Below, one piece after another: positions 50,808 through 64,000 of a stretch of DNA of 64,000 nucleotides. The stretch comes from Candidatus Woesearchaeota archaeon (lineage in GTDB: Archaea; Nanobdellota; Nanobdellia; Pacearchaeales; GW2011-AR1), in the NCBI GenBank assembly GCA_964482075.1, contig CAYZVU010000001.1, positions 343 through 64,342 of the forward strand. The letters run 5' to 3'. The stretch's first letter is position 1. Each line of letters opens with the position of its first letter. A program made the position numbers and the translations under genes. The notes under the pieces are model-generated. The model ran no database searches. It was not told the DNA's origin and saw only the letters and a program-made list of their open reading frames with translations.

Positions 50808-50854
50808 GAAAAAAGATAATTTTATTCTTTTTAAAAATATATATCTTAAACCAG

Positions 50855-50922
50855 GTAAATTTTTTGGTAATTTTATTGTGGCCTGCCGGCCTTGTGCACT
50901 TAGGTTGCCTTAGTTATTATAT
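50855..50922. repeat. 68-bp direct repeat copy A with GC-rich near-palindrome GGCCTGCCGGCC
   Basis: gtaaattttttggtaattttattgtggcctgccggccttgtgcacttaggttgccttagttatta recurs at 51447-51514 with 2 mismatches. Confidence 0.8.
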
Positions 50923-50967
50923 TTTAGAAGATATATAAAAATATAAAAGAATCTAATTTAACTTTGT

Positions 50968-51450: not shown

Positions 51451-51514
51451 ATTTTTTGGTAATTTTATTGTGGCCTGCAGGCCTTGTGCACTTAGGTTGC
51501 CTTAGTTATTAGAT
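51447..51514. repeat. 68-bp direct repeat copy B with perfect palindrome GGCCTGCAGGCC
   Basis: See copy A. In this copy the 12-bp core is a perfect palindrome. Confidence 0.8.
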
Positions 51515-51526
51515 GTTTAAGGGGTT

Positions 51527-51800
51527 TTCTTTATTTTAAGGTGTTTGGACAGGCTGTTTGTTTGTTTTATCGACGGGAATATTAACTTAAACAAACAGCT
51601 GTTTGAATTAAATTTATCTGCTTTTTGGCTGTTTAAAGGTGTTTGTGAGTGTTTGGACAGGCTGTTTGTCTGTTTTTTTTCTGACAAACAGCTGTTTTTT
51701 AGGGTATTTTTATTAATTTTTAGTAGTAATTTTTTAATTTTATCGACGAGGGAAAAAAGATATCCACGACGTAAACAAAACATTTTTAAACAATGTTTTG
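51527..51800. promoter_or_regulatory. Iteron/palindrome array (plasmid-origin-like or operator region)
   Basis: 2x GTTTGGACAGGCTGTTTGT (51543, 51651), 2x perfect palindrome AAACAGCTGTTT (51593, 51686), 2x AAGGTGTTTG and 2x TTTATCGACG, all in ~270 bp upstream of the wHTH gene. Confidence 0.55.
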
Positions 51801-51810
51801 CAGATTATAT

Positions 51811-52411
51811 TATGTTTGGTTGGTTTAATAAAAAAAAAGATGTGGAAGAAGTAAGAGAAGAAACAAAAAAAGGTTTTGAAGCAGTTAAAAAAGATATTGT
51901 TTCTGTTAGTGGCTGGATCAAACACCTTGATTCTGAGAAAAAAATACAAAAAAAGGAGTTACAAGACATAAAAGAAGTTTTATCGACGATTCAAATAGAA
52001 ATGGATGGGCTAAAAAATGTACTTTCTTTGATGAATGAGTTAAATCCTAAACAGGTGTTTAAAACACCTAAGAGGGTGTCCAACAAACAAACAGCTGTTT
52101 ATGCTGTTCAAACAGGTGTTCAAACAGGTGTTCAAACACCAAATTTAGGCCAATTTTCAATTACTGAAAGAGCAATAATAAGCATCTTATTAAACACAGA
52201 TTTAAAGCTAAGTTATGATGATTTAGGAGCAATGCTTGGAAAAGAAAGATCTACTATAAGAGGCCAAATAAACTCAATAAAACAGAAAAGTGAGATTATT
52301 TCTGAAAAAATAGAGAAAAATGGTAAAAAGAGGGTGTATATAGAGGAAGATATAAAGGAAAAAATACTCAAAAAGTCGAAAGTGAGAGTTAATAGTGCTA
52401 AAAAAAATTGA
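51811..52411 (+). CDS. Coiled-coil + winged-helix (wHTH) DNA-binding protein with internal VQTG x3 repeat
   Basis: Start MFGWFNKKK at the ATG at 51811. Upstream of this the track ORF runs through the iteron array and was rejected. The protein has an N-terminal coiled coil and a C-terminal wHTH-like domain (ITERAIISILLNTDLKLSYDDLGAMLGKERSTIRGQINSIKQK). It contains a (gttcaaacaggt)x3 repeat at 52106-52140 and an AAACAGCTGTTT palindrome at 52089-52100. Confidence 0.5.
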
Positions 52412-52631
52412 AAAAGGTGAAATAAAATAAAAAAAGTTGTTTTTAAATTCTAAAAGTGAGAGTTTTAAACAATAAAAAAGAGTCAGACTCTCTAAAAAGA
52501 GTGTATTAAGGGTAATATCTAAAAAAAGATATAAAAAAGAACAAAAAAAGGGATTAATATCAACTTAAAGTGAGGATAAAAACAAGTTGATAATAGTTTA
52601 AACTATTTATTCGGTTAGGGGAATAACTTAC

Positions 52632-53288
<657 letters not shown>

Positions 53289-53346
53289 TTATTAAATAAA
53301 ATTTAGAAGTATAAAAACTTTCAGATGATAAAACATATCTTTTTGG

Positions 53347-53613
53347 TTATTGTCTATTCTTATATGCAGTATAAGTCTCTTCACTTAATGCCCATCTAGC
53401 CCTTCGAAGATATTGTTTTCCTTTGGGATTTTTATTAATTTTTTTAATTAATTTTTTTGAATTTAAATCAATTAATAATTTTTTAATAAATTCTTCATCT
53501 CTAGCTAACTCTCTTGCTATATGTGATGTAAAAATTGGTTTAGGGGAGATTAAGAATAATGTGGCTAAAATTTGTTCAGATATCTTATCTTTTTTTTCTT
53601 TAGAAATTTTCAT
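53347..53613 (-). CDS. Small wHTH transcriptional regulator-like protein (88 aa)
   Basis: TSHIARELARDEEFIKKLLIDLNSKKLIKKI resembles a MarR/PadR-type recognition helix plus wing. Confidence 0.4.
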   Translation of the reverse strand: MKISKEKKDKISEQILATLFLISPKPIFTSHIARELARDEEFIKKLLIDLNSKKLIKKINKNPKGKQYLRRARWALSEETYTAYKNRQ

Positions 53614-53649: not shown

Positions 53650-54066
53650 CTATTCTTTTTTTTCTGGTGCCTTAAGTGTGGGAAAAGGCACATGATATGG
53701 AAGGTTCATTTCATCTTCTAATTGAAGCGCCTTTATATTGGCTTTTCTAATAATTAAATTAAATAAAGTAATTTTAAAATCATCTTCTAATTCTTTATCC
53801 TTCCACTGTTTTAATACCTCTCTTGATACCTTTGCCTCAACTTCGATCGCTATTGCTCCTGAAAGCTCTATTTTTGCTATTTCTGGTGAATATTCAATAG
53901 TATATTTGAATTTTATTTCTAATAATTCCCCTTTTGGTTTGAAAAACCCAGAATTTGGAGAATTTATTTCAGATATGTCTATACTTGTGTTAATTTTTGT
54001 TTCTCTTGTCGCAGGAGAAAATTTTTCTACACTAATTTTATTAAAACTAAATCCTATTAATTTCAT
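53650..54066 (-). CDS. Hypothetical protein (138 aa)
   Basis: Clean ORF; no motif recognised. Confidence 0.4.
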   Translation of the reverse strand: MKLIGFSFNKISVEKFSPATRETKINTSIDISEINSPNSGFFKPKGELLEIKFKYTIEYSPEIAKIELSGAIAIEVEAKVSREVLKQWKDKELEDDFKITLFNLIIRKANIKALQLEDEMNLPYHVPFPTLKAPEKKE

Positions 54067-54159: not shown

Positions 54160-54417
54160 TTAAACAAGATCTTCTTCAGAGATAACTAAAAAGTCGCTTA
54201 TAGAGATTATTGCACTATGTGGGACTAATAATTCATTAGTTGATATTTTCTCTAAATTAAGGTTTTTTGTATAAGGTGTCGCATCTTTTAATAAAACGTT
54301 TATTAATTCCCCTGAATTTGTTTCAAATGTTATGTCTTTAACAAACCCCAGTCTCTTACCTTCCTTTGTTACAACCATCTTTCCTATTAAACTATTAAAA
54401 GAATTTTTATCTTGCAT
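54160..54417 (-). CDS. PRC-barrel domain protein
   Basis: SLIGKMVVTKEGKRLGFVKDITFETNSGELINVLLKD shows the PRC-barrel pattern and parallels the 36912 ORF. Confidence 0.4.
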   Translation of the reverse strand: MQDKNSFNSLIGKMVVTKEGKRLGFVKDITFETNSGELINVLLKDATPYTKNLNLEKISTNELLVPHSAIISISDFLVISEEDLV

Positions 54418-54507
54418 GATAAATCCAGAAGAAAATAATTTATAAACTTTTCTGTGAATTTATATAGAGTTAAAAGACTCTATGATTGATGATTTTTGGA
54501 CTTTTTG

Positions 54508-55052
54508 AGTGTGTGTCCCCATGATTTCCTATAGAAGTATTTATAAATAAAAATTTTGTTTTTTTTTATTTTTATTTTATTTATATTATTATATATATTA
54601 TAGTATATATATTATATATTATATATAAAATTTAATATTTTTAGATTTTTTTATTAATTTTTTTATTAAAAATATTTTATTTTTATTTTTTAAAAATTAG
54701 ATTTTTTTATTAGATTATATTTATAATTAAATTAAATTATAAATTTTATTTTATTATAAAAAATAAATATAATAATATAAATATTAAGTTAATTTATAGA
54801 TTTAAGGTAATTTTTTAATTTAAATAATATTTAAAAATAATTTTTTAATAAATATCTTAATATAATTCTTTTTTTCCATTGGAAATGTTGGTGTTCTTAT
54901 TTTTTAGTGATTATAATCTTTTATATAATAAATTTTGTTTTTTTCGTTGGGTTATAATTTGTATAACATTTTTCCATAGGAAATCATACTGTGAGAGATT
55001 ATATATTTCATATAACCTAAGAGTTTAAATATGAAACAAAATTTAATTTAAA
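54508..55052. promoter_or_regulatory. oriC: Chromosomal replication origin (oriC): AT-rich DUE flanked by inverted ORB-like dyads, immediately upstream of orc1/cdc6
   Basis: About 320 bp (54540-54860) of essentially 100% A+T with ATATAT runs. Two direct-oriented dyads sit on the orc1 side: TTTTCCATTGGAAAT (54873-54887) and TTTTCCATAGGAAATCAT (54971-54988). An inverted half-copy CATGATTTCCTATAG sits on the far side (54512-54526). Confidence 0.75.
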
Positions 55053-56264
55053 ATGGGGTCGGATCTAGATAATATTTTTGAATCTTTTGATAAAAATAGA
55101 ATTTTTCAAGATAAAATTATTTTACAAGTTCATCATCAACCAGATGAAATTATTCATCGAGGGGATCAGATAAATCAAATTGCATCTATTCTTGCGCCTG
55201 TTTTGAGAGGAGAGAAGCCAAGTAATCTTTTTTTATATGGTAAAACTGGAACAGGAAAAACATTATCTATACAAAAAGTTAAAGAGGAACTTTTGAAAAG
55301 AATGAAACCTGCTGCAGATTTTAAATTGAGGGTGGAATATTTAAATTGTAAATTAAAGAAAGTTTCTGATACAGAATATAGGATTTTGGCAGAGCTTATT
55401 CGAAAGATGGGTGGGATGGTTCCTGCAACTGGGCTTCCTACAGAATCTGTTTATAATAAATTTATAGATATTATTGATAATGAGAAACAAATTGTTGTTT
55501 TGATTTTAGATGAGATTGATCAAACTGTGAAGAAAATTTCAGATAGTTTTCTTTATAATCTTACCAGGTTAAATTCCGAGCTTTCTAAAACTCAGATTTG
55601 TTTAGTTGGGATTAGTAATAATTTAACTTTTTTAGATGAGATTGATCCTCGTGTTAGAAGTTCTTTATCTGAAGAGGAGATTATTTTTCCTCCATATAAT
55701 GCTTTGCAGTTGCAGGAAATTTTGAGTAAGAGGGCTGAGGTTGCCTTTAGAAAGGGTGTATTGCAAGAGGGTGTTATTGCAAAGTGCTCTGCCTTTGCGG
55801 CTCGTGAACATGGGGATGCGAGAAGGGCTTTGGATTTATTGAGGATAGCTGGGGAGTTGGCTGAAAGAAATGATTCTAAAAAAGTTTTATTAAAACATAT
55901 TGATGAAGCAAATAGTAAATTAGAGAGAGATAAAATTTTAGATATTATTCGTACTGAGCCCAAACAGTTTCAGTTGGTTCTTTATTCTATAATGAGATTA
56001 TTAGAAGAAAGTAAAGAAGAGGCAATTTTTACAGGAGATGTTTATAATCATTATCAAGATTTATGTAAAAAGAATAATTGTGAGGTTTTGACTCAAAGGA
56101 GAATGAGTGATATTCTTCAAGAATTTGATATGTTGGGGATAATTAATGTTCGTATTATTTCAAAGGGTCGTGGGGGGAGAATGAGGGAAATTAGGTTGGC
56201 GATTGCGAAAAATCTTGTTGTTCAGGCAAAAAAAATAATTGAAGATTCTTTAAATTATAATTGA
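55053..56264 (+). CDS. orc1: Orc1/Cdc6 replication initiator
   Basis: AAA+ Walker A LFLYGKTGTGKT, Walker B VLILDEID, sensor motifs and a C-terminal winged helix. Confidence 0.9.
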   Translation: MGSDLDNIFESFDKNRIFQDKIILQVHHQPDEIIHRGDQINQIASILAPVLRGEKPSNLFLYGKTGTGKTLSIQKVKEELLKRMKPAADFKLRVEYLNCKLKKVSDTEYRILAELIRKMGGMVPATGLPTESVYNKFIDIIDNEKQIVVLILDEIDQTVKKISDSFLYNLTRLNSELSKTQICLVGISNNLTFLDEIDPRVRSSLSEEEIIFPPYNALQLQEILSKRAEVAFRKGVLQEGVIAKCSAFAAREHGDARRALDLLRIAGELAERNDSKKVLLKHIDEANSKLERDKILDIIRTEPKQFQLVLYSIMRLLEESKEEAIFTGDVYNHYQDLCKKNNCEVLTQRRMSDILQEFDMLGIINVRIISKGRGGRMREIRLAIAKNLVVQAKKIIEDSLNYN

Positions 56265-56278
56265 ATCTTTGTTTTAAA

Positions 56279-57829
56279 ATGGAAAATAAAGAGATACTTA
56301 AATTTTGTTTACAGAAGGGACTTTTATTAGATGGAGACGCACTTTCTTTGTTTAATGGGTTAAGTGATATTAATTCTGTGAAACTTCTTCTTGAAAAAAT
56401 TAAAATTAATACAGGGGAAAAAATTATTACTCGTGGTCTTTTTGAAAGAAATAGAGAACAATTAAATGAGTTTGTTTTAACTTTACCAGAGGAGAATCAA
56501 AAAAGTTTTGAAAAATTTAAAATTAAATTAGGGTTAAATATAGAGATTTCTCGTGAGGTGTCGTCTGTTATTGAAAATAAGGTTCTTAATGAGACTTCTG
56601 TTTTGGTTTTTTCTGAAAATGTTGTTAAGGGGAAGAAGGTGGTGGTTTCTGATTTTGTAAATTATTTTAGAAATAGGTTTTATGATATGAAAAGTATTTT
56701 ACAAGAAAAACCTGAATTAAATGGATTAACTTCTATAAATAAATTGTCTCGTGATTCTCAAAGTGTTTCTTTAATAGGAATTATTTCAAATAAAACTATT
56801 ACTAAAAATAAAAATATAATTTTTGAAATAGAAGATTTAACTGGGAAAATTAAAGTTTTGGTTAATTGTAAGAAAGAGGCTCTTTTTAAGGAAGCAGAGG
56901 ATATTAGTTTAGATTCTGTTATTGGTTTTAAGGGGTCTGGGAATAGAGAGATTTTTTTTGTAAATGATATTTTTTTCCCTGATGCAGTACTTTCTGAAAG
57001 GAAAAAATCTCTTAAAGATGAGTCTGTTGTTTTTATTGGAGATCTTCATTATGGGAGTAAGCTTTTTCTTGAGGAAAATTTTTTAAAATTTATAGATTAT
57101 CTTAATGGGAATGTTCCAAATACACCAGAGGCTGAAAAAATAAAATATCTTTTTATTGTAGGAGATCTTATTACGGGGGTTGGAAATTATCCTAATCAGG
57201 AGGCTGATTTAAAAGTAGGCGGGGTTGAAGAGCAATTTTCTTGTATCGCAAATTTATTAGGGAAAATTAGAAGTGATATTAAAATTATTATTTCTCCTGG
57301 GAATCATGATTGTGTTCGATTAATGGAGCCTCAGCCTAAAATTAATGAAAAATATGCCTGGCCATTGTATAAGATGAAAAATGTATTTATTACTGAGAAT
57401 CCTTGTAATATTAATATTGGGGCTGTTCCTGGTTTTTCTGGTTTTAATATTTTAACTTATCATGGTTTTTCTTTTTTTTATTATGTTAATAATGTTCAAT
57501 CTTTAATGAGTGTTAAAGCTGCAAGTTCACCTGAATTAATTATGAAATACCTTTTGAAAAATAGACATCTTGCACCATCTCAGGGTTCGACGCAGTATTT
57601 TCCTTTAGAAAAGGATCCTTTTATTATTAGGGATATTCCAGATATTTTTGTTTCTGGGCATACTCATAAAGGGGCTACTTCTTATTATAATAATATTTTA
57701 ATTATTTCTATTTCTTGTTGGGAGGCGATGACTCCTTATATGGAGAAAGTTGGGAGTAAGCCTGATTTTTGTAAGGTTCCTATGTTTAATTTAAAGACGA
57801 GGGAAATTAAAATTTTGGATTTTGAATAA
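56279..57829 (+). CDS. polB (dp1): DNA polymerase II (PolD) small subunit DP1 (3'-5' exonuclease, calcineurin-like phosphoesterase)
   Basis: Phosphoesterase motifs (FIGDLHYGS, FIVGDLITG, GNHD, SGHTH) and an N-terminal OB-like region; ATG at 56279. Confidence 0.9.
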   Translation: MENKEILKFCLQKGLLLDGDALSLFNGLSDINSVKLLLEKIKINTGEKIITRGLFERNREQLNEFVLTLPEENQKSFEKFKIKLGLNIEISREVSSVIENKVLNETSVLVFSENVVKGKKVVVSDFVNYFRNRFYDMKSILQEKPELNGLTSINKLSRDSQSVSLIGIISNKTITKNKNIIFEIEDLTGKIKVLVNCKKEALFKEAEDISLDSVIGFKGSGNREIFFVNDIFFPDAVLSERKKSLKDESVVFIGDLHYGSKLFLEENFLKFIDYLNGNVPNTPEAEKIKYLFIVGDLITGVGNYPNQEADLKVGGVEEQFSCIANLLGKIRSDIKIIISPGNHDCVRLMEPQPKINEKYAWPLYKMKNVFITENPCNINIGAVPGFSGFNILTYHGFSFFYYVNNVQSLMSVKAASSPELIMKYLLKNRHLAPSQGSTQYFPLEKDPFIIRDIPDIFVSGHTHKGATSYYNNILIISISCWEAMTPYMEKVGSKPDFCKVPMFNLKTREIKILDFE

Positions 57830-57836
57830 TATAAAA

Positions 57837-58400
57837 ATGAATGAAGAAATAATAGAAAAAGTGAGAATGTTTGTTGAAGAAGAATGTAAGAAGCCTATCT
57901 CTAAGTATGGGATGGATGCCTTGGAGAATCATTTTAAATCGGTAGTTTTTCATGTAGAAAAATTATCTGATGAATTTGGAGGAGATAAGGAAATTCTTAT
58001 AATTTCTGCTTGGTTACATGATATTGGTTCGGTTATTTACGATCGAAAAAATCATCATATTACAGGGGCTGATATTGCTGAAAAAAAATTGAATGAATTT
58101 AATTATCCTTTAGAAAAAGTTAAAAAAGTTAAACATTGCATTCTTTGCCATAGGGGTTCCCAAAATATTCCTCCAGAGACGATTGAGGCTAAAATTCTTA
58201 TTGAGGCTGATGCTCTTTCTGCTTTTGATTGTTTGAGTGGTCATTTTAAAGCTGCTTTTATATATGAGGGAAAAAATCAATTGGAGGCAAAAAAAGTTGT
58301 AAAAGAAAAATGGATAAATAAATATAAACAACTTTCTGAAATATCAAAAAAATTAGTTAAACCAAAATATGAGGCAGCAATGTTGCTTTTGGGAGATTAA
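57837..58400 (+). CDS. HD-domain phosphohydrolase
   Basis: HD motif AWLHDIG...H...D(ALSAF). It is located between DP1 and DP2 with 7-nt and 0-nt gaps. Confidence 0.65.
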   Translation: MNEEIIEKVRMFVEEECKKPISKYGMDALENHFKSVVFHVEKLSDEFGGDKEILIISAWLHDIGSVIYDRKNHHITGADIAEKKLNEFNYPLEKVKKVKHCILCHRGSQNIPPETIEAKILIEADALSAFDCLSGHFKAAFIYEGKNQLEAKKVVKEKWINKYKQLSEISKKLVKPKYEAAMLLLGD

Positions 58401-61400
58401 ATGGCATACACAAAAACAACGGAAAAATATTTTAAAGATTTAGAAAAGCAAGTTAGAAAAGTTTATGATATGGCTGAGGAGGCTAAAAAAACAGGATTGG
58501 ATCCTGTGGATAAAGTTGAGATTCCTTTGGCGATGAGTATGGCTGAAAAAGTTGTGGGATTAATTTCTACTGTTTATCCTCAAGTAGAGGGTTCTGGAAT
58601 TGCCAAAAGGATTTTGGAGTTGGAAGATGAATATGGAAAGTTAGACCCTACGGTTGTTTTTAAAATTGCTGAAGAGGTTGCGAAGCAAAAGTATTGTGAA
58701 TTTGTTAGTTTGATTGAGGCTATTACTGCGGGAATTAGGGTTGGAATGGCTTATTATACCCTTGCTGTTGTTGCAAGTCCAATTGAAGGGTTTACTGGAT
58801 TAAAGATTGAGAAGACACGAGAGGGGAAGGAATATTTTAAGGCATATTTCTCGGGGCCTATTCGTAGTGCAGGAACTACTGCTGGGTGTGTTAATTTAAT
58901 GTTGATAGATTATTTGAGAGAACTTTTTGGTTATGCAAAATATGATCCTAGTGATGATGAAGTTGAAAGATATGTTACGGAAATTAATGATTTTCAGGAG
59001 AGAATTACAAATTTACAATATTTCCCATTAGAGGAAGAGATGAGATTTTTGGCAAAGCGTTTGCCAATTCAAGTTGCTGGCGAGCCTAGTGAAAAATTAG
59101 AGGTTTCTAATTATAAAAATTTAGAGAGAGTTGAAACAAATAGATTACGGAGTGGGGTTTGTTTAATTTTAGCAGAAGGGTTGGCGCAAAAAGCTGCGAA
59201 GGGGTTTAGATTATACAATAAGGCAAAAAAAGATGGAATTAAGATGACTGGGTTTGATTGGATTAAAGAGTATGTTGAATTGCATGAAAAATTAACTAAT
59301 GGGGCTGGAAAAAAGATTGGAGATTCTGTGCCGGTTTATATTAAAGATATTGTTGCTGGTCGTCCTGTTTATGGGCATCCTTCGCGTTCAGGTGGTTTTA
59401 GATTTAGATATGGGCTTGCAAGAAATTCTGGGTTTAGTGCTGCTTCGGTTCATCCTGCTACAATGGCAATTACAGATGATTTTATTGCAATTGGTACTCA
59501 GTTAAAAATTGAAAAGCCGACTAAAGGTTGTGTTGTTACTTCTTGTGATTGTATAGATGGGCCTATTATTAAATTATTTAATGGAAGTGTGAAAAAGCCT
59601 CAGACCGCGGAGGAAGCAAGGCGGTTTTACAAAGATACAGAAGAAATAATTTATCTTGGTGATTTTCTTTTTCCGTTTGGCGATGTTGTTAATCGAAATT
59701 CAATGTTGCCAAAGCCAGGCTATGTTGAAGAATGGTGGAATTTAGAATTGGAGAAACTTGGAGGGGAGGTTAAAGATTACTTTAATGTTAGTTTTTTAGA
59801 GGCTGTTGAATTAAGTAAAAAGTTTAATATCCCTTTACATCCGAAATTTATTTTTTATTGGAATGAAATTTCTAAAGAACAATTTTTGGGATTATTAGAA
59901 TGGTTGAAAAATTCTCAGATAAATGAAAAGATTATTTTTCCTTATACTAAAAAAGATCAGGATAAATTTAAGGTTGGGAAAAGAGCGTTGGAATTATTGG
60001 GTATTGGACATGATGTTATTGATGAAAATGTTATTTTAAGTAAAGAAAATAGCTTGGCGCTTTTGGCTAATTTGGGAATTGAAATAAAAGAGGGGGAATT
60101 AAAGGAAAAGATTGAAGATTTTAATAAAAAGTTATTTTTAGAAAATTTAGAAAATAAAAAAACTTTAGAGGTAATTAATAATTTTTCTGAATTTAAAATT
60201 AAAGATAAATCTGGAGACTTTATTGGTTCTCGAATGGGGCGTCCTGAAAAGGCAAAGTTGAGAAAATTAATTGGAAGTCCGAATGTTTTATTTTCTGTTG
60301 GTAAGGAAGGAGGGAGATTAAGAAGTATCCAAGCTGCTTTGGAAGTTGGAAAAATTAGAAGTCAATTCCCGATTTTTTATTGTGAAAAATGTAAGAAAGA
60401 ATCAATTTATGGGAAGTGTGTTTTTTGTGGGGAAAAAACAAAAAAACAATTTTATTTTCATAAATTAAAAGAAAAATCTTTTAGTAAGGTTAGGGATGAT
60501 TCTGAAATGGAAGGGGTTCCTTATTGTACTCAGAATTTGGAGATTAATGATTATTATAATTGTGCTGTTGAAAAAATAAAGATGAAAAAAGAAGAGATTC
60601 CTGCTTTAATTAAGGGAATTCGTGGGATGTCTTCTGAAGAGCGTGTTCCTGAAAATCTTTGTAAGGGTTTACTGAGGGCAAAATATGGACTACAGGTAAA
60701 TAAGGATGGAACGATTCGGATTGATGGAACGGAGTTGCCTTTAACTTCATTTAAACCTAAGGAGATTTTTGTGGGGGTTGAAAAATTAAAAGAGTTGGGT
60801 TATGAAAAAGATATTTATGGGGATGATTTAATTAATGAAAATCAGATTTTAGAACTTTTTCCTCATGATATTCTATTACCATGTTCTCCTAAAACTCCAG
60901 ATGAAAAAGCTGATGAGGTTTTTTTAAATATTGGAAATTTTGTTGATGAGGAGCTAGAGAGATTTTATGGTTTGGATAAATTTTATAATTTTAAGAAAAG
61001 AGAAGATTTAATTGGTGTTCTTGGAGTTTGTATGGCTCCTCATAATTGTGCAGGAGTTGTTTGCAGAATTATTGGATTTGCAAATGTTCTTGGATTATAT
61101 GCTTCTCCTTATATGCATGCTGCAATTCGTCGTGATTGTGATGGGGATGAGATGGCAATTATGTTATTGGGGGATGTTTTGTTAAATTTTTCTAGAAAGT
61201 TTTTGCCAGGGCATAGAGGGGGAACTCAGGATGCGCCATTGGTTTTAAATGCAAAAATTAATGCAGGGGAAGTTGACGATCAAATTTTAGATTTTGAATT
61301 TGTTTCTGGAAGTTATCCTTTAGAATTGTATGAAAAAGCAGAGAAGAGATTGCATTCTTCAGAGGTTAAAGAAATTAAATTATGTAGTGATATTTTAAAG

Positions 61401-61880
61401 GAGGATAGTGATCCTTTTGTTGGGATTGGATTTACTCATGATACTTCTGATTTTAATAAGGGGGTTGTGTGTTCTTCTTATAAAACTTTACCGACGATGC
61501 AAGATAAAGTTAATCATCAGATGGCACTTGTGGAGAAATTGCGTTCTGCGGATACTTCTGATACTGCGCGGTTGATTATTGAAAGACATTTTATGAGAGA
61601 TATTAGGGGTAATTTAAGAAATTTCTCTACGCAGAGTTTTAGGTGTGTTGGGTGTAATGAAATTATTAGGCGTCCTCCGTTGTCTGGAAATTGCCCTATT
61701 TGTAATGGCAAAATAATTTTTACTGTTCATGAGGGTGGGATAAAAAAATATTTAGAACCTGCTTTAACTTTAGCAAAGAAATATAATTTGTCTCCTTATT
61801 TGAAACAAAATTTAGAATTAGTTAAAAGTTATTTAGATAGTATTTTTGGAGAAGAAACAATAAAGGAGGAGAAAGCATAA
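58401..61880 (+). CDS. polC (dp2): DNA polymerase II (PolD) large subunit DP2
   Basis: 1159 aa with DP2 hallmark regions (double-psi beta-barrel catalytic core ...GLARNSGFSAASVHPATM..., C-terminal zinc fingers CVGCNEIIRRPPLSGNCPICNG). No intein-sized insertion is present. Confidence 0.95.
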   Translation: MAYTKTTEKYFKDLEKQVRKVYDMAEEAKKTGLDPVDKVEIPLAMSMAEKVVGLISTVYPQVEGSGIAKRILELEDEYGKLDPTVVFKIAEEVAKQKYCEFVSLIEAITAGIRVGMAYYTLAVVASPIEGFTGLKIEKTREGKEYFKAYFSGPIRSAGTTAGCVNLMLIDYLRELFGYAKYDPSDDEVERYVTEINDFQERITNLQYFPLEEEMRFLAKRLPIQVAGEPSEKLEVSNYKNLERVETNRLRSGVCLILAEGLAQKAAKGFRLYNKAKKDGIKMTGFDWIKEYVELHEKLTNGAGKKIGDSVPVYIKDIVAGRPVYGHPSRSGGFRFRYGLARNSGFSAASVHPATMAITDDFIAIGTQLKIEKPTKGCVVTSCDCIDGPIIKLFNGSVKKPQTAEEARRFYKDTEEIIYLGDFLFPFGDVVNRNSMLPKPGYVEEWWNLELEKLGGEVKDYFNVSFLEAVELSKKFNIPLHPKFIFYWNEISKEQFLGLLEWLKNSQINEKIIFPYTKKDQDKFKVGKRALELLGIGHDVIDENVILSKENSLALLANLGIEIKEGELKEKIEDFNKKLFLENLENKKTLEVINNFSEFKIKDKSGDFIGSRMGRPEKAKLRKLIGSPNVLFSVGKEGGRLRSIQAALEVGKIRSQFPIFYCEKCKKESIYGKCVFCGEKTKKQFYFHKLKEKSFSKVRDDSEMEGVPYCTQNLEINDYYNCAVEKIKMKKEEIPALIKGIRGMSSEERVPENLCKGLLRAKYGLQVNKDGTIRIDGTELPLTSFKPKEIFVGVEKLKELGYEKDIYGDDLINENQILELFPHDILLPCSPKTPDEKADEVFLNIGNFVDEELERFYGLDKFYNFKKREDLIGVLGVCMAPHNCAGVVCRIIGFANVLGLYASPYMHAAIRRDCDGDEMAIMLLGDVLLNFSRKFLPGHRGGTQDAPLVLNAKINAGEVDDQILDFEFVSGSYPLELYEKAEKRLHSSEVKEIKLCSDILKEDSDPFVGIGFTHDTSDFNKGVVCSSYKTLPTMQDKVNHQMALVEKLRSADTSDTARLIIERHFMRDIRGNLRNFSTQSFRCVGCNEIIRRPPLSGNCPICNGKIIFTVHEGGIKKYLEPALTLAKKYNLSPYLKQNLELVKSYLDSIFGEETIKEEKA

Positions 61881-64000
61881 TGGGATTTGTTCATTTACAC
61901 CTGCATACGGAATATAGTTTATTAGATGGAGCAATAAAAATTAGTGAATTATTTAAGAGGGTTAAGGAGCTTGGGCAAGATGCGGTTGCAATTACAGAAC
62001 ATGGAAATTTACATGCAGTAATTAAAAAATATCAACTTGCAAAAAAGGAAGGTGTTAAATTAATTTTTGGATGCGAGCCTTACTTGGTTGATGATATGAC
62101 TGTGAGGGATAAAAATCAAAAAAGACGTCATTTAATTCTTTTGGCAAAAAATTTAGAGGGGTATAAAAATTTAGTAAAACTTATTTCAATCGCTAATAAA
62201 GAGGGTTTTTATTATGCTCCAAGAATTGATAAGAATCTTCTTAAAAAATATAGTAAAGGGTTGATTTGTACTAGTGCATGTTTGGCAAATGATATTGCTC
62301 AAATGTTAGTTAAAGATGAGGAGGAGAAAGCTAAGGAATTGATTAGGGGATATATTGATATTTTTGGGAAAGATGATTTTTATTTAGAGGTGCATAATCA
62401 TGAAATTCCTGAAGAAGAAAAAGTTAGGGAGTTTTATTATAAGGTTGCAGATGAGTTTGGGGTTAAAATTATTGCAGCTTGTGATGCTCATTATTTAAAA
62501 AAAGAAGATACTCGTGCTCATGAGGTAATGCTTTCTATTCAAACTAATGGAAATATGTCTGACCCAAAGAGGTTCAGATTTAGTGGTGGAGGATATCATA
62601 TTATGAGTGAGGATGAAATGAGAAAATTATTTCCAGGGAGGGATGATGTTATTGAGAATACATTGGAGATTGCAAAGAAGTGTAATGTTGAATTAGATAT
62701 AGGCGATTCTATTTTTCCTGATTTTGAAGTTCCTAAGGAATATGATCATGCTAGTTATTTACATAAATTATGTGAGGAATCTTTAAATATAAAATATAAG
62801 GATGCGGAAAATTTTAAAATTGCGAGAGAGAGAATGGAATTTGAGCTTTCTGTAATCAATAAGATGGGTTTCGCAACTTATTTTTTAATTGTTCATGATT
62901 TTATTTGTGATGCAAAAAAGCATTGTCAGGTTGGTCCTGGTCGTGGAAGTGGGGCGGGTTCAATTGTTGCATATCTTTTGGGGATTACTCAATTAGAACC
63001 TTTGTCTTTAGGGCTTTTGTTTGAAAGATTTCTTAATCCAGATAGAATTTCTCTTCCTGATTTTGATATTGATTTTGGAGATAAGGATGTTGTATTGGAT
63101 TATGTTAGGAAAAAATATGGTTTAGATAAAATTGCGATGATTGGAACTTTTGGAACTATGAGTGCGAAGTCTGTTTTGAAAGATGTAATGAGGGTATTTA
63201 GGATTCCTTTTGAGGAGGCGAATGCAATTACAAAGTTTGTAAATGAAAAAACTATTCAAAAATCTTTAGATGCAAAATCAGAAAAAGGGGATTTTATTGA
63301 GGATGCTTTTGAATTAAGAAAATATAAAGAAAAATATCCAGAAATTTTTAAAATTGCGCAAAGACTTGAGGGAAGTGTAAGACATAGAGGGGTTCATGCT
63401 TGTGGAGTTGTTTGGGGGAAAAAGGCAATTGATGAATATCTTCCTGTCCGATTTGCAAAAGGGGAGATTGTTACACAGGTTGAGGGAGGAGATGTTGAGG
63501 CTTATGGTTTGGTGAAGTTTGATTTTTTAGGGCTAGAGACTTTAAATGTTATAAAAAAAGTTCTTGATAGAATTGGCAAGAGCAGTGAATGGTTAGAGAA
63601 AATTCCAATGGATGATGATTCTGTTTATGAAATGTTGCGGCAACAAAAAAGTATTGGTGTCTTTCAAGTTGAGAGTGAAGGAATGAGAAAAACTTTGAAT
63701 TTGGTTCAACCAACTTGTTTTGATGATATTATTGCAATTGTTGCACTTTATCGTCCAGGCCCGATGCAATATTTGGAAGTTTATGCTGATGGGAAGCATG
63801 GGAGGGGGAAAGTAACTTATCCTCATCCAAAAGCAAAGGATATTTTGGCGCCAACTTATGGGATTATGGTTTATCAAGAACAGGTTATGCAGTTATCAAG
63901 GGCTTTGGCGAATTTTAGTGCAGGAGATTCTGATGTTTTAAGAAAAGCGATTGGTAAGAAAAAAATAGATTTAATGAAAAAGATGGAAGGGCAATTTAAG
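61880..64000 (+). CDS. dnaE: Bacterial-type C-family DNA polymerase (DnaE-like, PHP + pol III alpha core), 5' partial - runs off window
   Basis: The ATG overlaps the DP2 stop (gcaTAATGgga). It encodes a PHP domain (MGFVHLHLHTEYSLLDGA...ITEHGNL) and pol III alpha motifs (GPGRGSGAGSIVAYLLGIT, RFLNPDRISLPDFDIDF, GVHACGVV, KFDFLGLETL, ALYRPGPM, YQEQVMQ). The gene was absent from the ORF track because it has no stop in the window. Confidence 0.85.
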   Translation, partial: MGFVHLHLHTEYSLLDGAIKISELFKRVKELGQDAVAITEHGNLHAVIKKYQLAKKEGVKLIFGCEPYLVDDMTVRDKNQKRRHLILLAKNLEGYKNLVKLISIANKEGFYYAPRIDKNLLKKYSKGLICTSACLANDIAQMLVKDEEEKAKELIRGYIDIFGKDDFYLEVHNHEIPEEEKVREFYYKVADEFGVKIIAACDAHYLKKEDTRAHEVMLSIQTNGNMSDPKRFRFSGGGYHIMSEDEMRKLFPGRDDVIENTLEIAKKCNVELDIGDSIFPDFEVPKEYDHASYLHKLCEESLNIKYKDAENFKIARERMEFELSVINKMGFATYFLIVHDFICDAKKHCQVGPGRGSGAGSIVAYLLGITQLEPLSLGLLFERFLNPDRISLPDFDIDFGDKDVVLDYVRKKYGLDKIAMIGTFGTMSAKSVLKDVMRVFRIPFEEANAITKFVNEKTIQKSLDAKSEKGDFIEDAFELRKYKEKYPEIFKIAQRLEGSVRHRGVHACGVVWGKKAIDEYLPVRFAKGEIVTQVEGGDVEAYGLVKFDFLGLETLNVIKKVLDRIGKSSEWLEKIPMDDDSVYEMLRQQKSIGVFQVESEGMRKTLNLVQPTCFDDIIAIVALYRPGPMQYLEVYADGKHGRGKVTYPHPKAKDILAPTYGIMVYQEQVMQLSRALANFSAGDSDVLRKAIGKKKIDLMKKMEGQFK

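What the first reader, a model, noticed from the sequence alone, without database searches (positions are those of the whole stretch)
61880..64000. Bacterial-type DnaE (C-family) polymerase translationally fused to the archaeal PolD operon at the origin
The reading frame that opens at 61880 carries unmistakable pol III alpha hallmarks. These are the PHP domain HLHxHTEYSxLDG and the motifs GRGSGAGSIVAYLLGIT, PDFDIDF, GVHACGVV, FDFLGLxTL, YRPGPM and YQEQVMQ. Its ATG overlaps the TAA of DP2 (TAATG). That makes an assembly chimera with bacterial DNA unlikely and implies co-transcription with orc1-DP1-HD-DP2 next to oriC. C-family polymerases are the bacterial replicase, whereas archaea normally use PolB and/or PolD. 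I am not aware of a characterised archaeal DnaE sitting inside the PolD operon. Codon usage and AT content of the gene look native (same ~30% GC, same Lys-rich style), which suggests an old acquisition rather than a recent one.
Basis: partly seen in the sequence, partly recalled or inferred. Interest (0 to 1): 0.85.

Follow-up and report, generated by a model that had tools for sequence, protein, structure and literature searches.

The report
Bacterial DnaE polymerase partnering archaeal PolD
A tiny uncultured (DPANN) archaeon carries an intact bacterial-style replicative DNA polymerase gene directly after its own archaeal polymerase genes at the replication origin; the pairing was noted briefly in a 2021 paper, but relatives in which the two polymerases are fused into one giant protein suggest that they work together as one machine.

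Summary
Window 61880-64000 (+) encodes the first 707 aa of a 1054-aa DnaE1-type Pol III alpha. Its ATG overlaps the DP2 stop codon (TAATG). It is the last gene of an orc1-DP1-HD-DP2-dnaE cluster next to an ORB-flanked, AT-rich origin, on a contig carrying archaeal ribosomal protein genes.

It is not a chimera. The same layout recurs in independent assemblies at 67-75% identity, and its codon usage matches DP2.

It is not new as an observation. Castelle et al. 2021 reported Pol III next to both PolD subunit genes in two Pacearchaeota.

I found no report of the following in the searched library:
- The clade has at least 120 clusters and is monophyletic. The polymerase Asp residues, all nine PHP ligands and a QxTLF clamp-type motif are essentially invariant, and there is no tau-binding CTD.
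- Eight independent clusters encode DP2::DnaE as one 2153-2367-aa polypeptide. Two are verified in DNA.
- None of 18 DnaE-linked DP2s keeps the canonical C-terminal PIP box. Four of four PIP-bearing loci checked have no DnaE after DP2.

Best reading: an active, self-proofreading C-family polymerase that works physically with PolD. Which sliding clamp it uses could not be tested here.

The parts
54418..55052 (.). Candidate oriC: a 635-bp intergenic gap between the PRC-barrel gene and orc1, holding an AT-rich unwinding stretch bracketed by ORB-like dyads
   Evidence: GC is 0.13 against 0.31 for the whole window. The sequence was read directly. Relatives have an equivalent gap with the same dyads.
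54525..54536 (-). Distal ORB-like dyad (TTCTATAGGAAA, followed by tcatggggac on the minus strand), inverted relative to the two proximal copies
   Evidence: The extended motif ...GAAAtcatagggtc is conserved in L001, L081, L083 and L086.
54874..54885 (+). ORB-like dyad TTCCATTGGAAA
   Evidence: One of only two exact matches to TTCCATWGGAAAT in the 64 kb.
54972..54983 (+). ORB-like dyad TTCCATAGGAAA, proximal to orc1
   Evidence: The second exact match in the window. The same element lies proximal to orc1 in L001, L083, L086 and L088.
55053..56264 (+). orc1/cdc6 replication initiator (403 aa)
   Evidence: Pfam Cdc6_C, Cdc6_lid and AAA domains. NCBIfam TIGR02928 scores 416 bits against a cutoff of 181.
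56261..57829 (+). PolD small subunit DP1 (about 522 aa; the exact start codon is uncertain)
   Evidence: Pfam DNA_pol_E_B, Metallophos and an OB fold. NCBIfam DP1 models reach 391 bits, below their equivalog cutoffs. The phosphoesterase motif residues D261, H263 and H469 are invariant across 10 loci.
57822..58400 (+). HD-domain phosphohydrolase (192 aa) in a variable slot of the PolD cluster
   Evidence: Pfam HD, E=2e-13. In relatives the slot holds HD, NT5C, both, UvdE or nothing, and the gene is sometimes fused to DP2.
58401..61880 (+). PolD large catalytic subunit DP2 (1159 aa). It has no intein, and its C-terminus is truncated and lacks the PIP box.
   Evidence: All three Pfam DP2 domains. 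TIGR00354 scores 1096 bits against a cutoff of 702. PDB 6hms_B matches at E=8e-241. The RRDCDGDE catalytic motif is present. The tail ...SIFGEETIKEEKA* ends 9 aa after the position of P. abyssi residue 1191.
61865..61869 (+). GGAGG Shine-Dalgarno-like element inside the DP2 3' end, 10 nt upstream of the DnaE ATG
   Evidence: Read directly from the sequence. Its function is inferred.
61880..64000 (+). dnaE: the first 707 of 1054 codons of a DnaE1-type Pol III alpha. The gene continues past the end of the window.
   Evidence: The full length comes from P0001, which is 100% identical. Full-length P0001 scores 1134 bits on NF004226, above the cutoff of 1002.
61892..62401 (+). PHP domain with all nine metal ligands (H7, H9, D16, H41, E66, H84, C134, D202, H204)
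   Evidence: Pfam PHP. The ligands align to Taq and Mtb DnaE1. Each ligand is the only residue seen in 106 homologues, with two sequences gapped at the first four positions. All nine are also present in the 8 fusion proteins.
63056..63076 (+). Palm motif PDFDIDF. D394 and D396 correspond to E. coli catalytic D401 and D403, and D398 corresponds to D405.
   Evidence: Sequence. The Asp residues are invariant in 106/106 homologues. The E. coli equivalences follow Timinskas et al. 2014 and established knowledge.
63521..63523 (+). Third catalytic Asp, D548 in KFDFLGL (corresponds to E. coli D555)
   Evidence: Invariant in 106/106 homologues.

Best explanation
The 3' end of the window encodes a native, intact, catalytically competent DnaE1-type C-family DNA polymerase of a Pacearchaeota/Woesearchaeota-like DPANN archaeon. 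It is the last gene of an origin-proximal orc1-DP1-HD-DP2-dnaE cluster.

SHOWN:
- It belongs to a large monophyletic archaeal DnaE clade that is well separated from all sampled bacterial and viral DnaE.
- Its composition is fully ameliorated to that of the host genome.
- It evolves slightly more slowly than DP2 in the same genomes.
- It keeps the polymerase Asp residues, all nine PHP metal ligands, the (HhH)2 and OB modules and a Q-x-T-L-F clamp-type motif, but has no tau-binding CTD.
- In every in-clade locus with flanking sequence that I examined, the gene lies immediately downstream of DP2, once with a small antisense gene between them.
- In one sub-lineage it is fused in frame to the DP2 C-terminus.
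- DnaE-linked DP2s have lost the canonical C-terminal PIP box, while their catalytic core stays conserved.

INFERRED:
- DnaE is co-expressed with PolD. It is translationally coupled here and covalently joined in the fusion lineage.
- It acts as a physical partner of PolD at the replication fork, giving a two-polymerase (D-family plus C-family) replicase.
- DnaE proofreads with its own PHP exonuclease and supplies a clamp-binding peptide that DP2 has given up.

The division of labour between the two polymerases (leading versus lagging strand, or primer extension versus bulk synthesis) and the identity of the clamp (PCNA or a bacterial beta clamp) are not determined.
For: Identity:
- Pfam and NCBIfam matches.
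- Full-length P0001 passes the DnaE equivalog cutoff, 1134 bits against 1002, and fails the DnaE2 and PolC models.
- It aligns end to end with Taq (E=5e-221), Mtb DnaE1 and E. coli alpha.

Nativeness:
- GC and GC skew are continuous across the junction.
- Codon-usage correlation is 0.92, and GC3 is 0.222 against 0.223 for DP2.
- Archaeal ribosomal protein genes lie on the same contig.

Clade:
- At least 120 clusters at 90% identity share 65-75% identity with the query and are labelled Pacearchaeota, Nanoarchaeota or archaeon.
- All of them collapse into one 50%-identity representative, and the bacterial continuum starts at 44% or below.
- The clade is monophyletic in 50/50 NJ bootstraps, with a stem length of 0.29.
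- No viral relative exceeds 42% identity.

Constraint:
- The PHP ligands, the Asp residues and Q894/L897/G899 are invariant in 106 homologues, and F898 is kept in 104, although flanking linker positions vary.
- DnaE is 67-70% identical between loci where DP2 is 56-60%, Orc1 60-64% and DP1 38-47%.
- The median DnaE/DP2 divergence ratio is 0.88.

Linkage:
- Synteny is conserved in L001, L081-L086 and L088.
- Eight clusters encode DP2::DnaE fusions. Two are DNA-verified in the same chromosomal context.
- The linkers are open in frame, while only 4/20000 and 1/20000 shuffles are stop-free.
- Both active sites are retained in all the fusions.

Co-variation:
- 0/18 DnaE-linked DP2s have the canonical KQxxLxxWF box, against 86/98 other DP2s with a readable C-terminal tail.
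- All four PIP-bearing loci checked lack DnaE after DP2, in two separate parts of the DP2 tree.
- The motif sits at the position of the P. abyssi iPIP, which is required for PCNA-dependent processive synthesis (Madru et al. 2020).

PolD is still intact:
- Linked DP2s keep 98.4% of 187 invariant DP2 columns.
- The DP1 nuclease motifs are conserved.
Against: - There is no biochemical or expression data, so co-transcription and complex formation are inferences from gene order and fusions.
- I could not test whether these genomes encode a beta clamp, clamp-loader subunits, epsilon, PolB or an unusual PCNA. The clamp partner of the QxTLF motif is therefore unknown.
- The PIP/DnaE association is not corrected for phylogeny. 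It rests on two contrasts in the DP2 tree and on 18 linked sequences.
- The interval after DP2 is a variable slot that holds restriction-modification genes in DnaE-less relatives. The window's nearest DP2 relatives lack DnaE there. The distribution is therefore patchy and is also compatible with cargo-like gain and loss.
- Tight stop/start overlap is seen only in this window. Other unfused loci have gaps of 58-240 nt or an antisense DUF3750 gene between DP2 and dnaE.
- In P. abyssi the terminal cPIP is dispensable for processive synthesis in vitro, so loss of a PIP need not cripple PolD.
Confidence: 0.55

Rival explanations
1. DnaE is an auxiliary repair, gap-filling or translesion polymerase. 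It is co-located and co-expressed with PolD but does not form a stable complex with it and takes no part in bulk replication, as a DnaE2-like or Pol II-like accessory enzyme would.
For: - The same lineages also acquired a bacterial Pol II-like PolB (group B7), which is presumably an accessory enzyme (Kazlauskas et al. 2020).
- The protein lacks the tau-binding CTD, as DnaE2 does.
- The distribution among close relatives is patchy, which suggests the gene is dispensable.
- The PolD core is fully conserved, so PolD could still do all the replication.
Against: - It fails the DnaE2 model, 574 bits against a cutoff of 939, and passes the replicative DnaE equivalog.
- All nine PHP ligands and a Q..LF motif are essentially invariant. 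These are hallmarks of DnaE1 and PolC. They are not typical of most DnaE2, which have a Pro-rich motif, or of DnaE3, which have a disrupted PHP.
- No imuA/imuB-like neighbours appear in any locus.
- Recurrent in-frame fusion to the replicase catalytic subunit, together with loss of the replicase's own PIP box, is hard to explain for an occasional repair enzyme.
Confidence: 0.22
2. DnaE has taken over as the main processive replicase. PolD is retained mainly for initiation or primer-extension functions, much as DnaE3 hands off to PolC in Bacillus.
For: - The DnaE-linked DP2s lack the PIP at the iPIP position, which P. abyssi PolD needs for PCNA-dependent processivity.
- DnaE keeps an invariant clamp-type motif and its own proofreader.
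- DnaE is the most conserved protein of the cluster.
- The nearest bacterial relatives are Clostridia-type DnaE1, which works in two-polymerase replisomes.
Against: - The DP2 catalytic motif and 98.4% of invariant core columns are retained, as are the DP1 exonuclease motifs. PolD therefore remains a complete proofreading polymerase.
- There is no evidence that a bacterial QxxLF peptide binds archaeal PCNA, or that a beta clamp is present.
- Close relatives replicate without DnaE at this locus.
Confidence: 0.15
3. DnaE is selfish or neutral cargo that landed in a recombination-prone slot downstream of DP2, possibly delivered by a virus or plasmid, and it has no role in host chromosome replication.
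For: - The DP2-to-TctA interval is variable and holds restriction-modification genes or a Lactamase_B/Apyc1-like gene in DnaE-less relatives.
- Recombinase or integrase genes lie a few kb upstream: a resolvase at window 49606-50385 and a phage integrase in L245.
- Castelle et al. noted phage-like genes nearby and suggested horizontal transfer.
Against: - The recombinase also occurs upstream in a DnaE-less locus (L247), so it is not tied to DnaE.
- No close viral homologue was found in IMG/VR, where the best hit is 42% identical.
- Composition is fully ameliorated.
- The clade is deep and monophyletic with invariant catalytic residues, and it diverges more slowly than DP2.
- The fusion linkers are kept open by selection.
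Confidence: 0.06
4. The junction is an assembly chimera or a bacterial contaminant joined to an archaeal contig.
For: None beyond the prior expectation that C-family polymerases are bacterial.
Against: - There is a 1-nt stop/start overlap and no break in composition.
- The same junction recurs in independent assemblies from ENA, JGI, NCBI and Logan at 67-75% identity, and as in-frame fusions.
Confidence: 0.01

Closest known systems
Pacearchaeota 'DNA polymerase III' (fam03494) next to the DNA polymerase II (PolD) subunit genes; Castelle et al. 2021, Front Microbiol, PMC8204110
   Same: It is the same kind of organism and the same gene adjacency: Pol III alpha next to the small and large PolD subunit genes. 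The paper drew the same conclusion, that it is a bacterial polymerase atypical for Archaea and probably acquired horizontally.
   Different: - The paper verified only three DPANN sequences, two of them from Pacearchaeota. It called them highly divergent and gave no motif, clamp or fusion analysis.
- Here the clade is shown to be large and monophyletic, 41-46% identical to bacterial DnaE1, and intact in all catalytic features.
- It is also fused to DP2 in a sub-lineage and associated with loss of the DP2 PIP box.
- I found no close viral relatives, so the suggested phage link is not supported.
Bacterial DnaE1 with PHP proofreading (T. aquaticus Pol III alpha 2HPI/4IQJ; M. tuberculosis DnaE1 5LEW/7PU7)
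   Same: - The domain order is the same: PHP, palm/thumb/fingers, (HhH)2, clamp motif, OB.
- All nine PHP metal ligands, the Asp residues and the Q..LF motif are conserved.
- It passes NCBI's DnaE equivalog threshold.
   Different: - There is no C-terminal tau-binding domain. The protein ends right after the OB fold, and the profile is covered over positions 5-1050 of 1146.
- It is encoded in an archaeal genome inside the PolD cluster. No tau, epsilon or beta gene lies within 10 kb in any locus examined.
Two-polymerase bacterial replisomes: Clostridia PolC + DnaE1 and Bacillus PolC + DnaE3 (Timinskas et al. 2014, PMC3919608)
   Same: Two different replicative-type polymerases serve one chromosome. 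The nearest bacterial sequences to this clade are Clostridia/Bacillota DnaE at about 45% identity. The feature profile, an intact PHP and a conserved clamp motif, matches the DnaE1 of the 'PolC + DnaE1' system.
   Different: The partner here is a D-family (RNA-polymerase-like) enzyme, not PolC. In one lineage the two are covalently fused, which to my knowledge has not been described for PolC and DnaE.
Canonical archaeal PolD (P. abyssi DP1-DP2; 6HMS, 6T8H; Madru et al. 2020, PMC7101311)
   Same: DP1 and DP2 are clear orthologues, with DP2 matching 6hms_B at E=8e-241. The catalytic motif and Zn modules are present. The orc1-proximal gene order is typical of archaea.
   Different: The DP2 C-terminus stops 9 aa after the core. 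It has neither an iPIP-position nor a cPIP-type PCNA/primase-binding peptide, and a C-family polymerase is appended after it as the next cistron or as a fusion.
Group B7 PolB of Woesearchaeota/Pacearchaeota, nested within the bacterial Pol II-like clade (Kazlauskas et al. 2020, PMC7544198)
   Same: It is another bacterial DNA polymerase acquired by the same DPANN lineages and then inherited within them.
   Different: It belongs to a different polymerase family (B rather than C). No linkage or fusion to PolD has been reported, and whether it co-occurs with the DnaE clade was not testable here.
Eukaryotic Pol epsilon catalytic subunit, with two tandem polymerase modules in one polypeptide (from my own knowledge, not tested here)
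   Same: It sets a precedent for a replicase polypeptide that contains two polymerase modules.
   Different: In Pol epsilon both modules are family B and the second is inactivated. In the DPANN fusions the modules come from unrelated families (D and C), and both keep their catalytic residues.

Membership tests
C-family DNA polymerase, DnaE type (Pol III alpha) | N-terminal PHP domain | tested here: met
   Pfam PF02811 matches aa 5-174 at E=8e-55.
C-family DNA polymerase, DnaE type (Pol III alpha) | Pol-beta-like palm with the catalytic Asp residues (E. coli D401, D403, D555) | tested here: met
   D394 and D396 in PDFDIDF and D548 in KFDFLGL. All are invariant in 106/106 homologues.
C-family DNA polymerase, DnaE type (Pol III alpha) | Fingers, (HhH)2 and C-terminal OB fold in DnaE order, with the OB fold after the clamp motif | tested here: met
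   The finger domain lies within the window. HHH_6 and the OB fold are found in full-length P0001 and its homologues. The alignment to Taq alpha runs to residue 1024.
C-family DNA polymerase, DnaE type (Pol III alpha) | Score above NCBI's curated equivalog cutoff | tested here: met
   Full-length P0001 scores 1134 bits on NF004226 against a cutoff of 1002. The window fragment alone scores 850 bits, below the cutoff because it is truncated.
DnaE1 subgroup (sole or main replicative alpha) | Intact nine-residue PHP metal site | tested here: met
   H7, H9, D16, H41, E66, H84, C134, D202 and H204 align to the Taq and Mtb ligands. Each is the only residue seen in the family alignment of 106, with two sequences gapped at the first four positions. 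The criterion comes from Timinskas et al. 2014.
DnaE1 subgroup (sole or main replicative alpha) | Conserved beta-clamp-binding motif with Q at position 1 and LF at positions 4-5 | tested here: met
   Q894-[M/L]-T-L897-F898-G899. Q and L are kept in 106/106 and F in 104/106. The fusion proteins keep the motif as QxTLF. Actual binding to a clamp was not tested.
DnaE1 subgroup (sole or main replicative alpha) | C-terminal domain (CTD) that binds the clamp-loader tau subunit | tested here: not met
   The proteins end just after the OB fold, at ...FGDAFIAK.... NF004226 is covered only over positions 5-1050 of 1146. The E. coli alignment stops at residue 1061 of 1160.
DnaE1 subgroup (sole or main replicative alpha) | Operates with bacterial holoenzyme partners (beta clamp, tau/gamma complex, epsilon) | not testable with these tools
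   None of these genes lies within 10 kb in any locus, but whole genomes could not be searched.
DnaE2 (ImuC, error-prone polymerase) | Score above the NF004225 cutoff; Pro-rich clamp motif; usually a degenerate PHP; imuA/imuB neighbours | tested here: not met
   The score is 574 bits against a cutoff of 939. The motif is QMTLF, not Pro-rich, and the PHP site is intact. No imuA/imuB-like neighbours were found. The one shared feature is the absent CTD.
DnaE3 (Bacillus-type second polymerase) | Disrupted PHP metal site (the hallmark according to Timinskas et al. 2014) | tested here: not met
   All nine PHP ligands are conserved. The Bacillus-type model NF005377 scores 779 bits against a cutoff of 1806.
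PolC | 3'-5' exonuclease domain inserted in PHP, with the OB fold N-terminal | tested here: not met
   Only the PHP-palm region (aa 78-376) matches the PolC models, at 220 bits against a cutoff of 873. PDB 3f2b matches aa 4-376 only.
Archaeal PolD (D-family) gene cluster | DP1 (Mre11-like phosphoesterase plus OB fold) and DP2 (three DP2 domains with the DxDGD catalytic motif) encoded together | tested here: met
   RRDCDGDE is present, and the DP1 motifs are conserved.
Archaeal PolD (D-family) gene cluster | PCNA-interacting peptide at the DP2 C-terminus (iPIP/cPIP) | tested here: not met
   The window DP2 ends ...SIFGEETIKEEKA* with no PIP-like motif. The canonical KQxxLxxWF box is present in 86/98 other lineage DP2s with a readable tail and in 0/18 DnaE-linked ones.
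Archaeal Orc1-associated replication origin | Intergenic AT-rich unwinding element flanked by inverted ORB repeats next to orc1/cdc6 | tested here: met
   The gap has GC 0.13. The only two exact dyads in the 64 kb, plus one inverted copy, bracket the AT-rich stretch, and the layout is conserved in five relatives. Origin firing itself was not tested.

The most novel reading that the evidence does not exclude
In this DPANN lineage PolD and a captured bacterial DnaE form one obligate hybrid replicase, pairing a D-family, RNA-polymerase-like enzyme with a C-family enzyme. DnaE supplies the sliding-clamp tether, with a beta-type QxTLF peptide re-targeted to archaeal PCNA, and a second (PHP) proofreader, after DP2 lost its own PIP box. 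In a sub-lineage the two have become a single dual-polymerase polypeptide of about 2,200-2,370 aa in which both active sites are live. I could not find such a natural chimeric replisome, crossing the bacterial/archaeal divide, described in the searched literature.
Probability: 0.4. Interest if true: 0.88.

Novelty: new member of a known kind. Interest (0 to 1): 0.62.

Why it matters
The replicative polymerases of Bacteria (family C) and Archaea (families D and B) are unrelated. That split is central to debates on how DNA replication originated. Here a bacterial replicase catalytic subunit has been domesticated inside the archaeal replicase gene cluster at the origin, kept catalytically intact over deep divergence, and in some genomes welded to the PolD catalytic subunit.

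If the two enzymes really work as one machine, three things follow. Core replisome parts would be interchangeable across domains. There would be a natural test case for how a beta-clamp-type peptide can be rewired to PCNA, or for how a bacterial clamp can be imported. And the fusion proteins would be directly expressible for biochemistry and cryo-EM, which gets around the fact that these organisms are uncultured.

For annotation, 'DNA polymerase III subunit alpha' calls in Pacearchaeota and Woesearchaeota MAGs should not be discarded as contamination.

Tried and rejected
- Exact-sequence look-ups of the window's DP2 and of P0001, intended to extend the contig, found nothing on record. The rest of the gene was therefore taken from P0001, which is 100% identical over the window part.
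- The metagenome scan with P0001 yielded only two in-clade loci (L088, L089) among 80. Its peptide patterns mostly hit bacteria.
- Viral scans with P0001 and P0122 found no close relatives, 42% identity at best and then nothing. I therefore dropped the phage-vector idea as unsupported.
- The ~162-aa ORF downstream of dnaE looked like a conserved partner. It begins with a signal or transmembrane segment and is detectable only in close relatives, so I rejected it as a replisome component.
- My first ORB regex used the wrong spacer. I corrected it.
- The midpoint-rooted DP2 NJ tree did not give a single DnaE-linked clade. I do not claim a single vertical origin for the linkage, and fused DP2s were monophyletic in only 2/30 bootstraps.
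- The absence of a contiguous RRDCDGDE motif in most DnaE-less DP2s looked at first like decay. It is an intein inserted in that motif.
- Literature searches for a described DP2-DnaE fusion or an archaeal C-family replicase found nothing beyond Castelle et al. 2021. One apparent DPANN + DnaE hit was the word 'DNAeasy'.
- Castelle's held supplements contain no dnaN or K02338 entries, so they do not settle the clamp question.
- I did not run structure prediction. Sequence matches to solved Pol III alpha and PolD structures at E<1e-180 already fix the folds.

Full report
**1. The observation**

Window 61880-64000 (+) is one uninterrupted reading frame of 707 codons that runs off the end of the window. 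Pfam places PHP at aa 5-174, the Pol III alpha core at aa 292-551 and the finger domain at aa 554-706, with E-values from 1e-55 to 1e-79. NCBIfam's DnaE model NF004226 aligns over model positions 5-720 of 1146.

Upstream on the same strand lie orc1/cdc6 (55053-56264), DP1 (56261-57829), an HD phosphohydrolase (57822-58400) and DP2 (58401-61880). The DP2 stop TAA (61878-61880) shares one base with the DnaE ATG, and a GGAGG sits 10 nt upstream.

The two genes are in different frames. In this window they are translationally coupled at most. They are not fused.

**2. The contig is archaeal and the junction is real**

The window also carries an archaeal/eukaryal-type ribosomal protein cluster (L3, L2, S3, S17, S4e, L5, L5e/L18, S5), a Tyw1-like wyosine enzyme, FtsZ and a 5S rRNA.

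GC content and GC skew run smoothly through the DP2/dnaE junction. The DnaE fragment's codon usage correlates with the other long ORFs at r=0.92. Its GC3 is 0.222 and its Lys content 10.6%, against 0.223 and 10.3% for DP2.

The decisive argument is comparative. The same neighbourhood occurs in independent assemblies: a Woesearchaeota MAG (L001), and ENA and JGI metagenome contigs (L081-L086, L088). The order is a PRC-barrel gene, an AT-rich gap, orc1, (HD or NT5C), DP1, DP2 and dnaE. In those loci DnaE is 67-70% identical to the window's protein. A public protein that is 100% identical over the window part (P0001) is 1054 aa long and complete.

**3. The origin**

The 635-bp gap upstream of orc1 has GC 0.13. 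It holds the only two exact copies of TTCCATWGGAAAT in the 64 kb, at 54874 and 54972 on the + strand. An inverted 1-mismatch copy at 54525 carries a G-rich extension, and the three copies bracket the AT-rich stretch. The same proximal and inverted distal dyads occur in the equivalent gap of L001, L081, L083, L086 and L088. This is the classic ORB/DUE layout of an Orc1-dependent archaeal origin. Origin firing itself is inferred.

**4. What kind of DnaE it is**

Full-length P0001 aligns end to end with T. aquaticus Pol III alpha (E=5e-221), M. tuberculosis DnaE1 and E. coli alpha. PolC matches only in the PHP-palm region.

P0001 passes NCBI's DnaE equivalog cutoff (1134 bits against 1002). It fails the error-prone DnaE2 model (574 against 939), the Bacillus-type models and the PolC models.

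In an alignment of 106 full-length homologues, these features are essentially invariant:
- the palm Asp residues D394, D396, D398 and D548;
- all nine PHP metal ligands (H7, H9, D16, H41, E66, H84, C134, D202, H204);
- an internal Q894-x-T-L-F-G motif, at the position of the bacterial beta-clamp-binding peptide.

The linker residues around the clamp motif vary freely. The proteins end directly after the OB fold, so the tau-binding CTD is missing.

By the criteria of Timinskas et al. 2014 this is a DnaE1-type core, with an intact PHP site and a Q..LF motif. It is not DnaE3, which has a disrupted PHP, and it is not a typical DnaE2, which has a Pro-rich motif. It does share DnaE2's CTD-less architecture.

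An intact PHP site is associated with intrinsic Zn-dependent proofreading in Taq-type and Mtb-type enzymes (plus established knowledge). A separate epsilon subunit is therefore probably unnecessary. This step is inferred.

**5. Clade and origin**

At least 120 clusters at 90% identity share 65-75% identity with the query. Where they are named, the labels are Pacearchaeota, Nanoarchaeota, Woesearchaeota or 'archaeon'.

An exhaustive HMMER scan of 1.8 billion cluster representatives collapses the whole clade into one 50%-identity representative. After it come only three intermediates: P0121 at 62%, and the intein-bearing P0122 and P0123 at 52% and 48%. The bacterial continuum begins at 44% or below.

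In an NJ analysis with bacterial and viral DnaE the clade is monophyletic in 50/50 bootstraps, with a stem length of 0.29. The mean within-clade distance is 0.33, and the minimum distance to any bacterium is 0.87. The nearest bacteria are mostly Clostridia/Bacillota at about 45% identity, but no specific donor is resolved. IMG/VR holds no close viral relative.

Across 18 linked pairs DnaE diverges at about 0.88 times the rate of DP2, and the two sets of distances are correlated. Within the same loci DnaE (67-70%) is better conserved than DP2 (56-60%), Orc1 (60-64%) or DP1 (38-47%). This is an old, ameliorated and strongly constrained acquisition.

**6. Prior knowledge**

Castelle et al. [quoted passage not shown] They report that in two Pacearchaeota the gene lies next to the small and large subunit genes of DNA polymerase II (PolD), and they suggest horizontal transfer. 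The core of the finding is therefore already published, although only in one paragraph. That paper does not mention clamps or fusions.

Kazlauskas et al. 2020 show that the same lineages also acquired a bacterial Pol II-like PolB. I found no paper describing what follows. The library covers open-access papers only.

**7. DP2::DnaE fusions**

P0121 (2207 aa) consists of a DP2 (54% identical to the window's DP2 over 1158 aligned positions), a Lys/Glu-rich linker of about 85 aa, and a complete DnaE that has lost its start Met.

A search with P0121 found eight distinct 90%-identity clusters of such proteins (2153-2367 aa). They come from NCBI, JGI, ENA and Logan, on contigs up to 382 kb. Each carries all three DP2 domains plus PHP, pol3_alpha, finger and HHH_6.

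Two are confirmed at the DNA level (L245, L246), in the same PRC - origin gap - orc1 - DP1 context. A third shows the same gene context, but no DNA was available.

All eight keep the DP2 RRDCDGDE motif, the DnaE PHP ligands and Asp residues, and the QxTLF motif. One of them, P0270, passes both the DP2 and the DnaE curated cutoffs.

The linkers are not conserved. They are acidic, low-complexity and variable in length, from about 40 to 190 aa. They contain no in-frame stop, although the other two frames contain 2-24. Only 4/20000 and 1/20000 composition-matched shuffles are stop-free.

This is a Rosetta-stone fusion that selection maintains. It is the strongest available evidence that PolD and DnaE act together physically.

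The loci form a series of increasing linkage:
- an antisense DUF3750 gene between DP2 and dnaE (L001, L083);
- a gap of 58-240 nt (L081, L086, L088);
- a 1-nt overlap (this window);
- an in-frame fusion (L245, L246).

**8. Co-variation with the DP2 clamp-binding tail**

Most Pacearchaeota/Nanoarchaeota DP2s end ...SIFGKExxKQxxLxxWF*, which is a canonical PIP box. The SIFG anchor aligns to P. abyssi DP2 residues 1187-1191. The box therefore falls at about 1197-1204, the position of the P. abyssi internal PIP (L1199/L1201).

Madru et al. 2020 showed that this iPIP is required for PCNA-dependent full-length synthesis. They also showed that the terminal PIP binds both PCNA and primase.

None of 18 DnaE-linked DP2s (5 adjacent, 5 on the same contig, 8 fused) has the canonical box. 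It is present in 86 of 98 other DP2s with a readable tail (Fisher p=1.5e-13, not corrected for phylogeny). The window's DP2 ends ...SIFGEETIKEEKA*.

All four PIP-bearing loci I could inspect keep the same syntenic frame but have no dnaE after DP2. One (L248) lies inside the clade that contains the fusions. Two (L249, L250) are the window's nearest DP2 relatives, at about 72% identity.

PolD itself is not decaying. Linked DP2s keep 98.4% of the 187 columns that are invariant in the other 107 DP2s, against 99.7% in a control. The DP1 phosphoesterase motifs are conserved in loci with and without DnaE.

**9. Mechanism**

Shown:
- an intact C-family polymerase with its own proofreading-site residues and a conserved clamp-type peptide;
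- encoded with PolD, and in one lineage fused to it;
- PolD catalytically intact but stripped of its C-terminal PCNA-binding box.

Inferred:
- the two enzymes form a hybrid D+C replicase;
- DnaE provides the clamp tether and a second proofreader;
- the HD or NT5C gene that shares the cluster, and that is sometimes fused to DP2, points to local control of the dNTP/dNMP pool.

Not determined:
- which strand or step each polymerase serves;
- whether the QxTLF peptide binds PCNA or an imported beta clamp.

**10. Reasons for caution**

- The interval after DP2 is a variable slot. It holds restriction-modification genes in L249 and L250, and a Lactamase_B/Apyc1-like gene in L247.
- DnaE-linked DP2s are not monophyletic in my NJ tree. 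Repeated loss, relocation elsewhere in the genome and lateral spread within the group all remain possible.
- Recombinase genes lie a few kb upstream of the origin in both DnaE-positive and DnaE-negative loci, so they say nothing specific about DnaE.
- Whole genomes could not be searched for clamps, clamp loaders or PolB.

**11. Verdict**

The phenomenon has been reported in brief, so the gene is a new member of a known but uncharacterised kind.

Three results give it real follow-up value: the size and constraint of the clade, the in-frame DP2::DnaE fusions, and the linked loss of the DP2 PIP box. I did not find these in the literature searched, and they make a hybrid archaeal/bacterial replicase directly testable.

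Noticed in passing
window 49606-50385 (-) and 50511-53613: A serine recombinase (Resolvase + Recombinase domains) is followed by a block of small ORFs, most without Pfam hits. Two are HTH proteins, and one has a weak DnaD_N-like hit. The block lies between the recombinase and the PRC/origin region and may be an integrated element beside oriC. A resolvase or a phage integrase recurs upstream of the origin in L247 (DnaE-less) and L245 (fusion).
   Followed up: partly
window 57822-58400; L081 5903-6487; L249 6825-7995; L250 7174-8004: The slot around DP1 and DP2 is variable: HD here, NT5C in L081, NT5C plus HD in L249, a UvdE/AP-endonuclease in L250, and nothing in L086. In several database proteins NT5C or HD is fused to the N-terminus of DP2 (for example P0279, P0284 and P0377). 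This suggests a functional tie between PolD and nucleotide-pool enzymes.
   Followed up: partly
DP2 homologues P0277-P0388 (for example L247 10001-14890, L248 10001-14899): Most DP2s outside the DnaE-linked set (95 of 107) carry an intein (Intein_splicing + LAGLIDADG_3) that interrupts the RRDCDGDE catalytic motif. Of the 18 DnaE-linked DP2s, 15 are intein-free, including the window's.
   Followed up: partly
P0122 (1393 aa) and P0123 (1361 aa), no loci available: These DnaE homologues are intermediate between the DPANN clade and bacteria (52% and 48% identity). Each carries an insertion of about 340 aa that looks like an intein: P0123 within the GRGS|AGS motif, P0122 within the PHP domain. Both keep QxTLFG and end after the OB fold. 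Their host and gene context are unknown, and they could mark further archaeal lineages or the donor.
   Followed up: partly
L249 11798-15775; L250 12972-15186; L247 15167-15934: In DnaE-less relatives the position after DP2 holds a type II/IIG-like methyltransferase-endonuclease plus a PD-(D/E)XK protein, or a DNA methylase plus an HNH nuclease, or a Lactamase_B/anti-Pycsar Apyc1-like gene. The interval appears to be a hotspot for defence-related cargo.
   Followed up: no
window 54160-54417 (-), 53650-54066 (-), 53347-53613 (-): A PRC-barrel gene, a 132-138-aa ORF and an ~88-aa winged-helix-like ORF lie on the other side of the origin gap. They are conserved in essentially every related locus, with or without DnaE, and are candidates for origin-associated factors.
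   Followed up: no
L013 (labelled Nitrosotalea sp.), P0022 (Nitrosarchaeum sp.), P0068 (Methanococcoides sp. SA1): Some DnaE records carry taxon labels from non-DPANN archaea. P0022 and P0068 belong to the DPANN clade at 71-72% identity, so their labels probably reflect mis-binning or mixed assemblies. L013 is only 44% identical and looks bacterial-like.
   Followed up: no
window 28469-30664 (-), 25029-26510 (+), 33771-34661 (-): Large ORFs of 731, 493 and 296 aa have no Pfam match. They lie next to a 764-aa T2SSE-type secretion/pilus ATPase (31422-33716).
   Followed up: no
window 39491-39605 (+): A stand-alone 5S rRNA gene (Rfam, 60.6 bits). No other rRNA gene and no tRNA gene was detected anywhere in the 64 kb.
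   Followed up: no
L001 7310-7780 (-), L083 9437-9907 (-): In one sub-lineage a DUF3750 gene sits antisense between DP2 and dnaE. There the two polymerase genes cannot be translationally coupled, although they remain neighbours.
   Followed up: no
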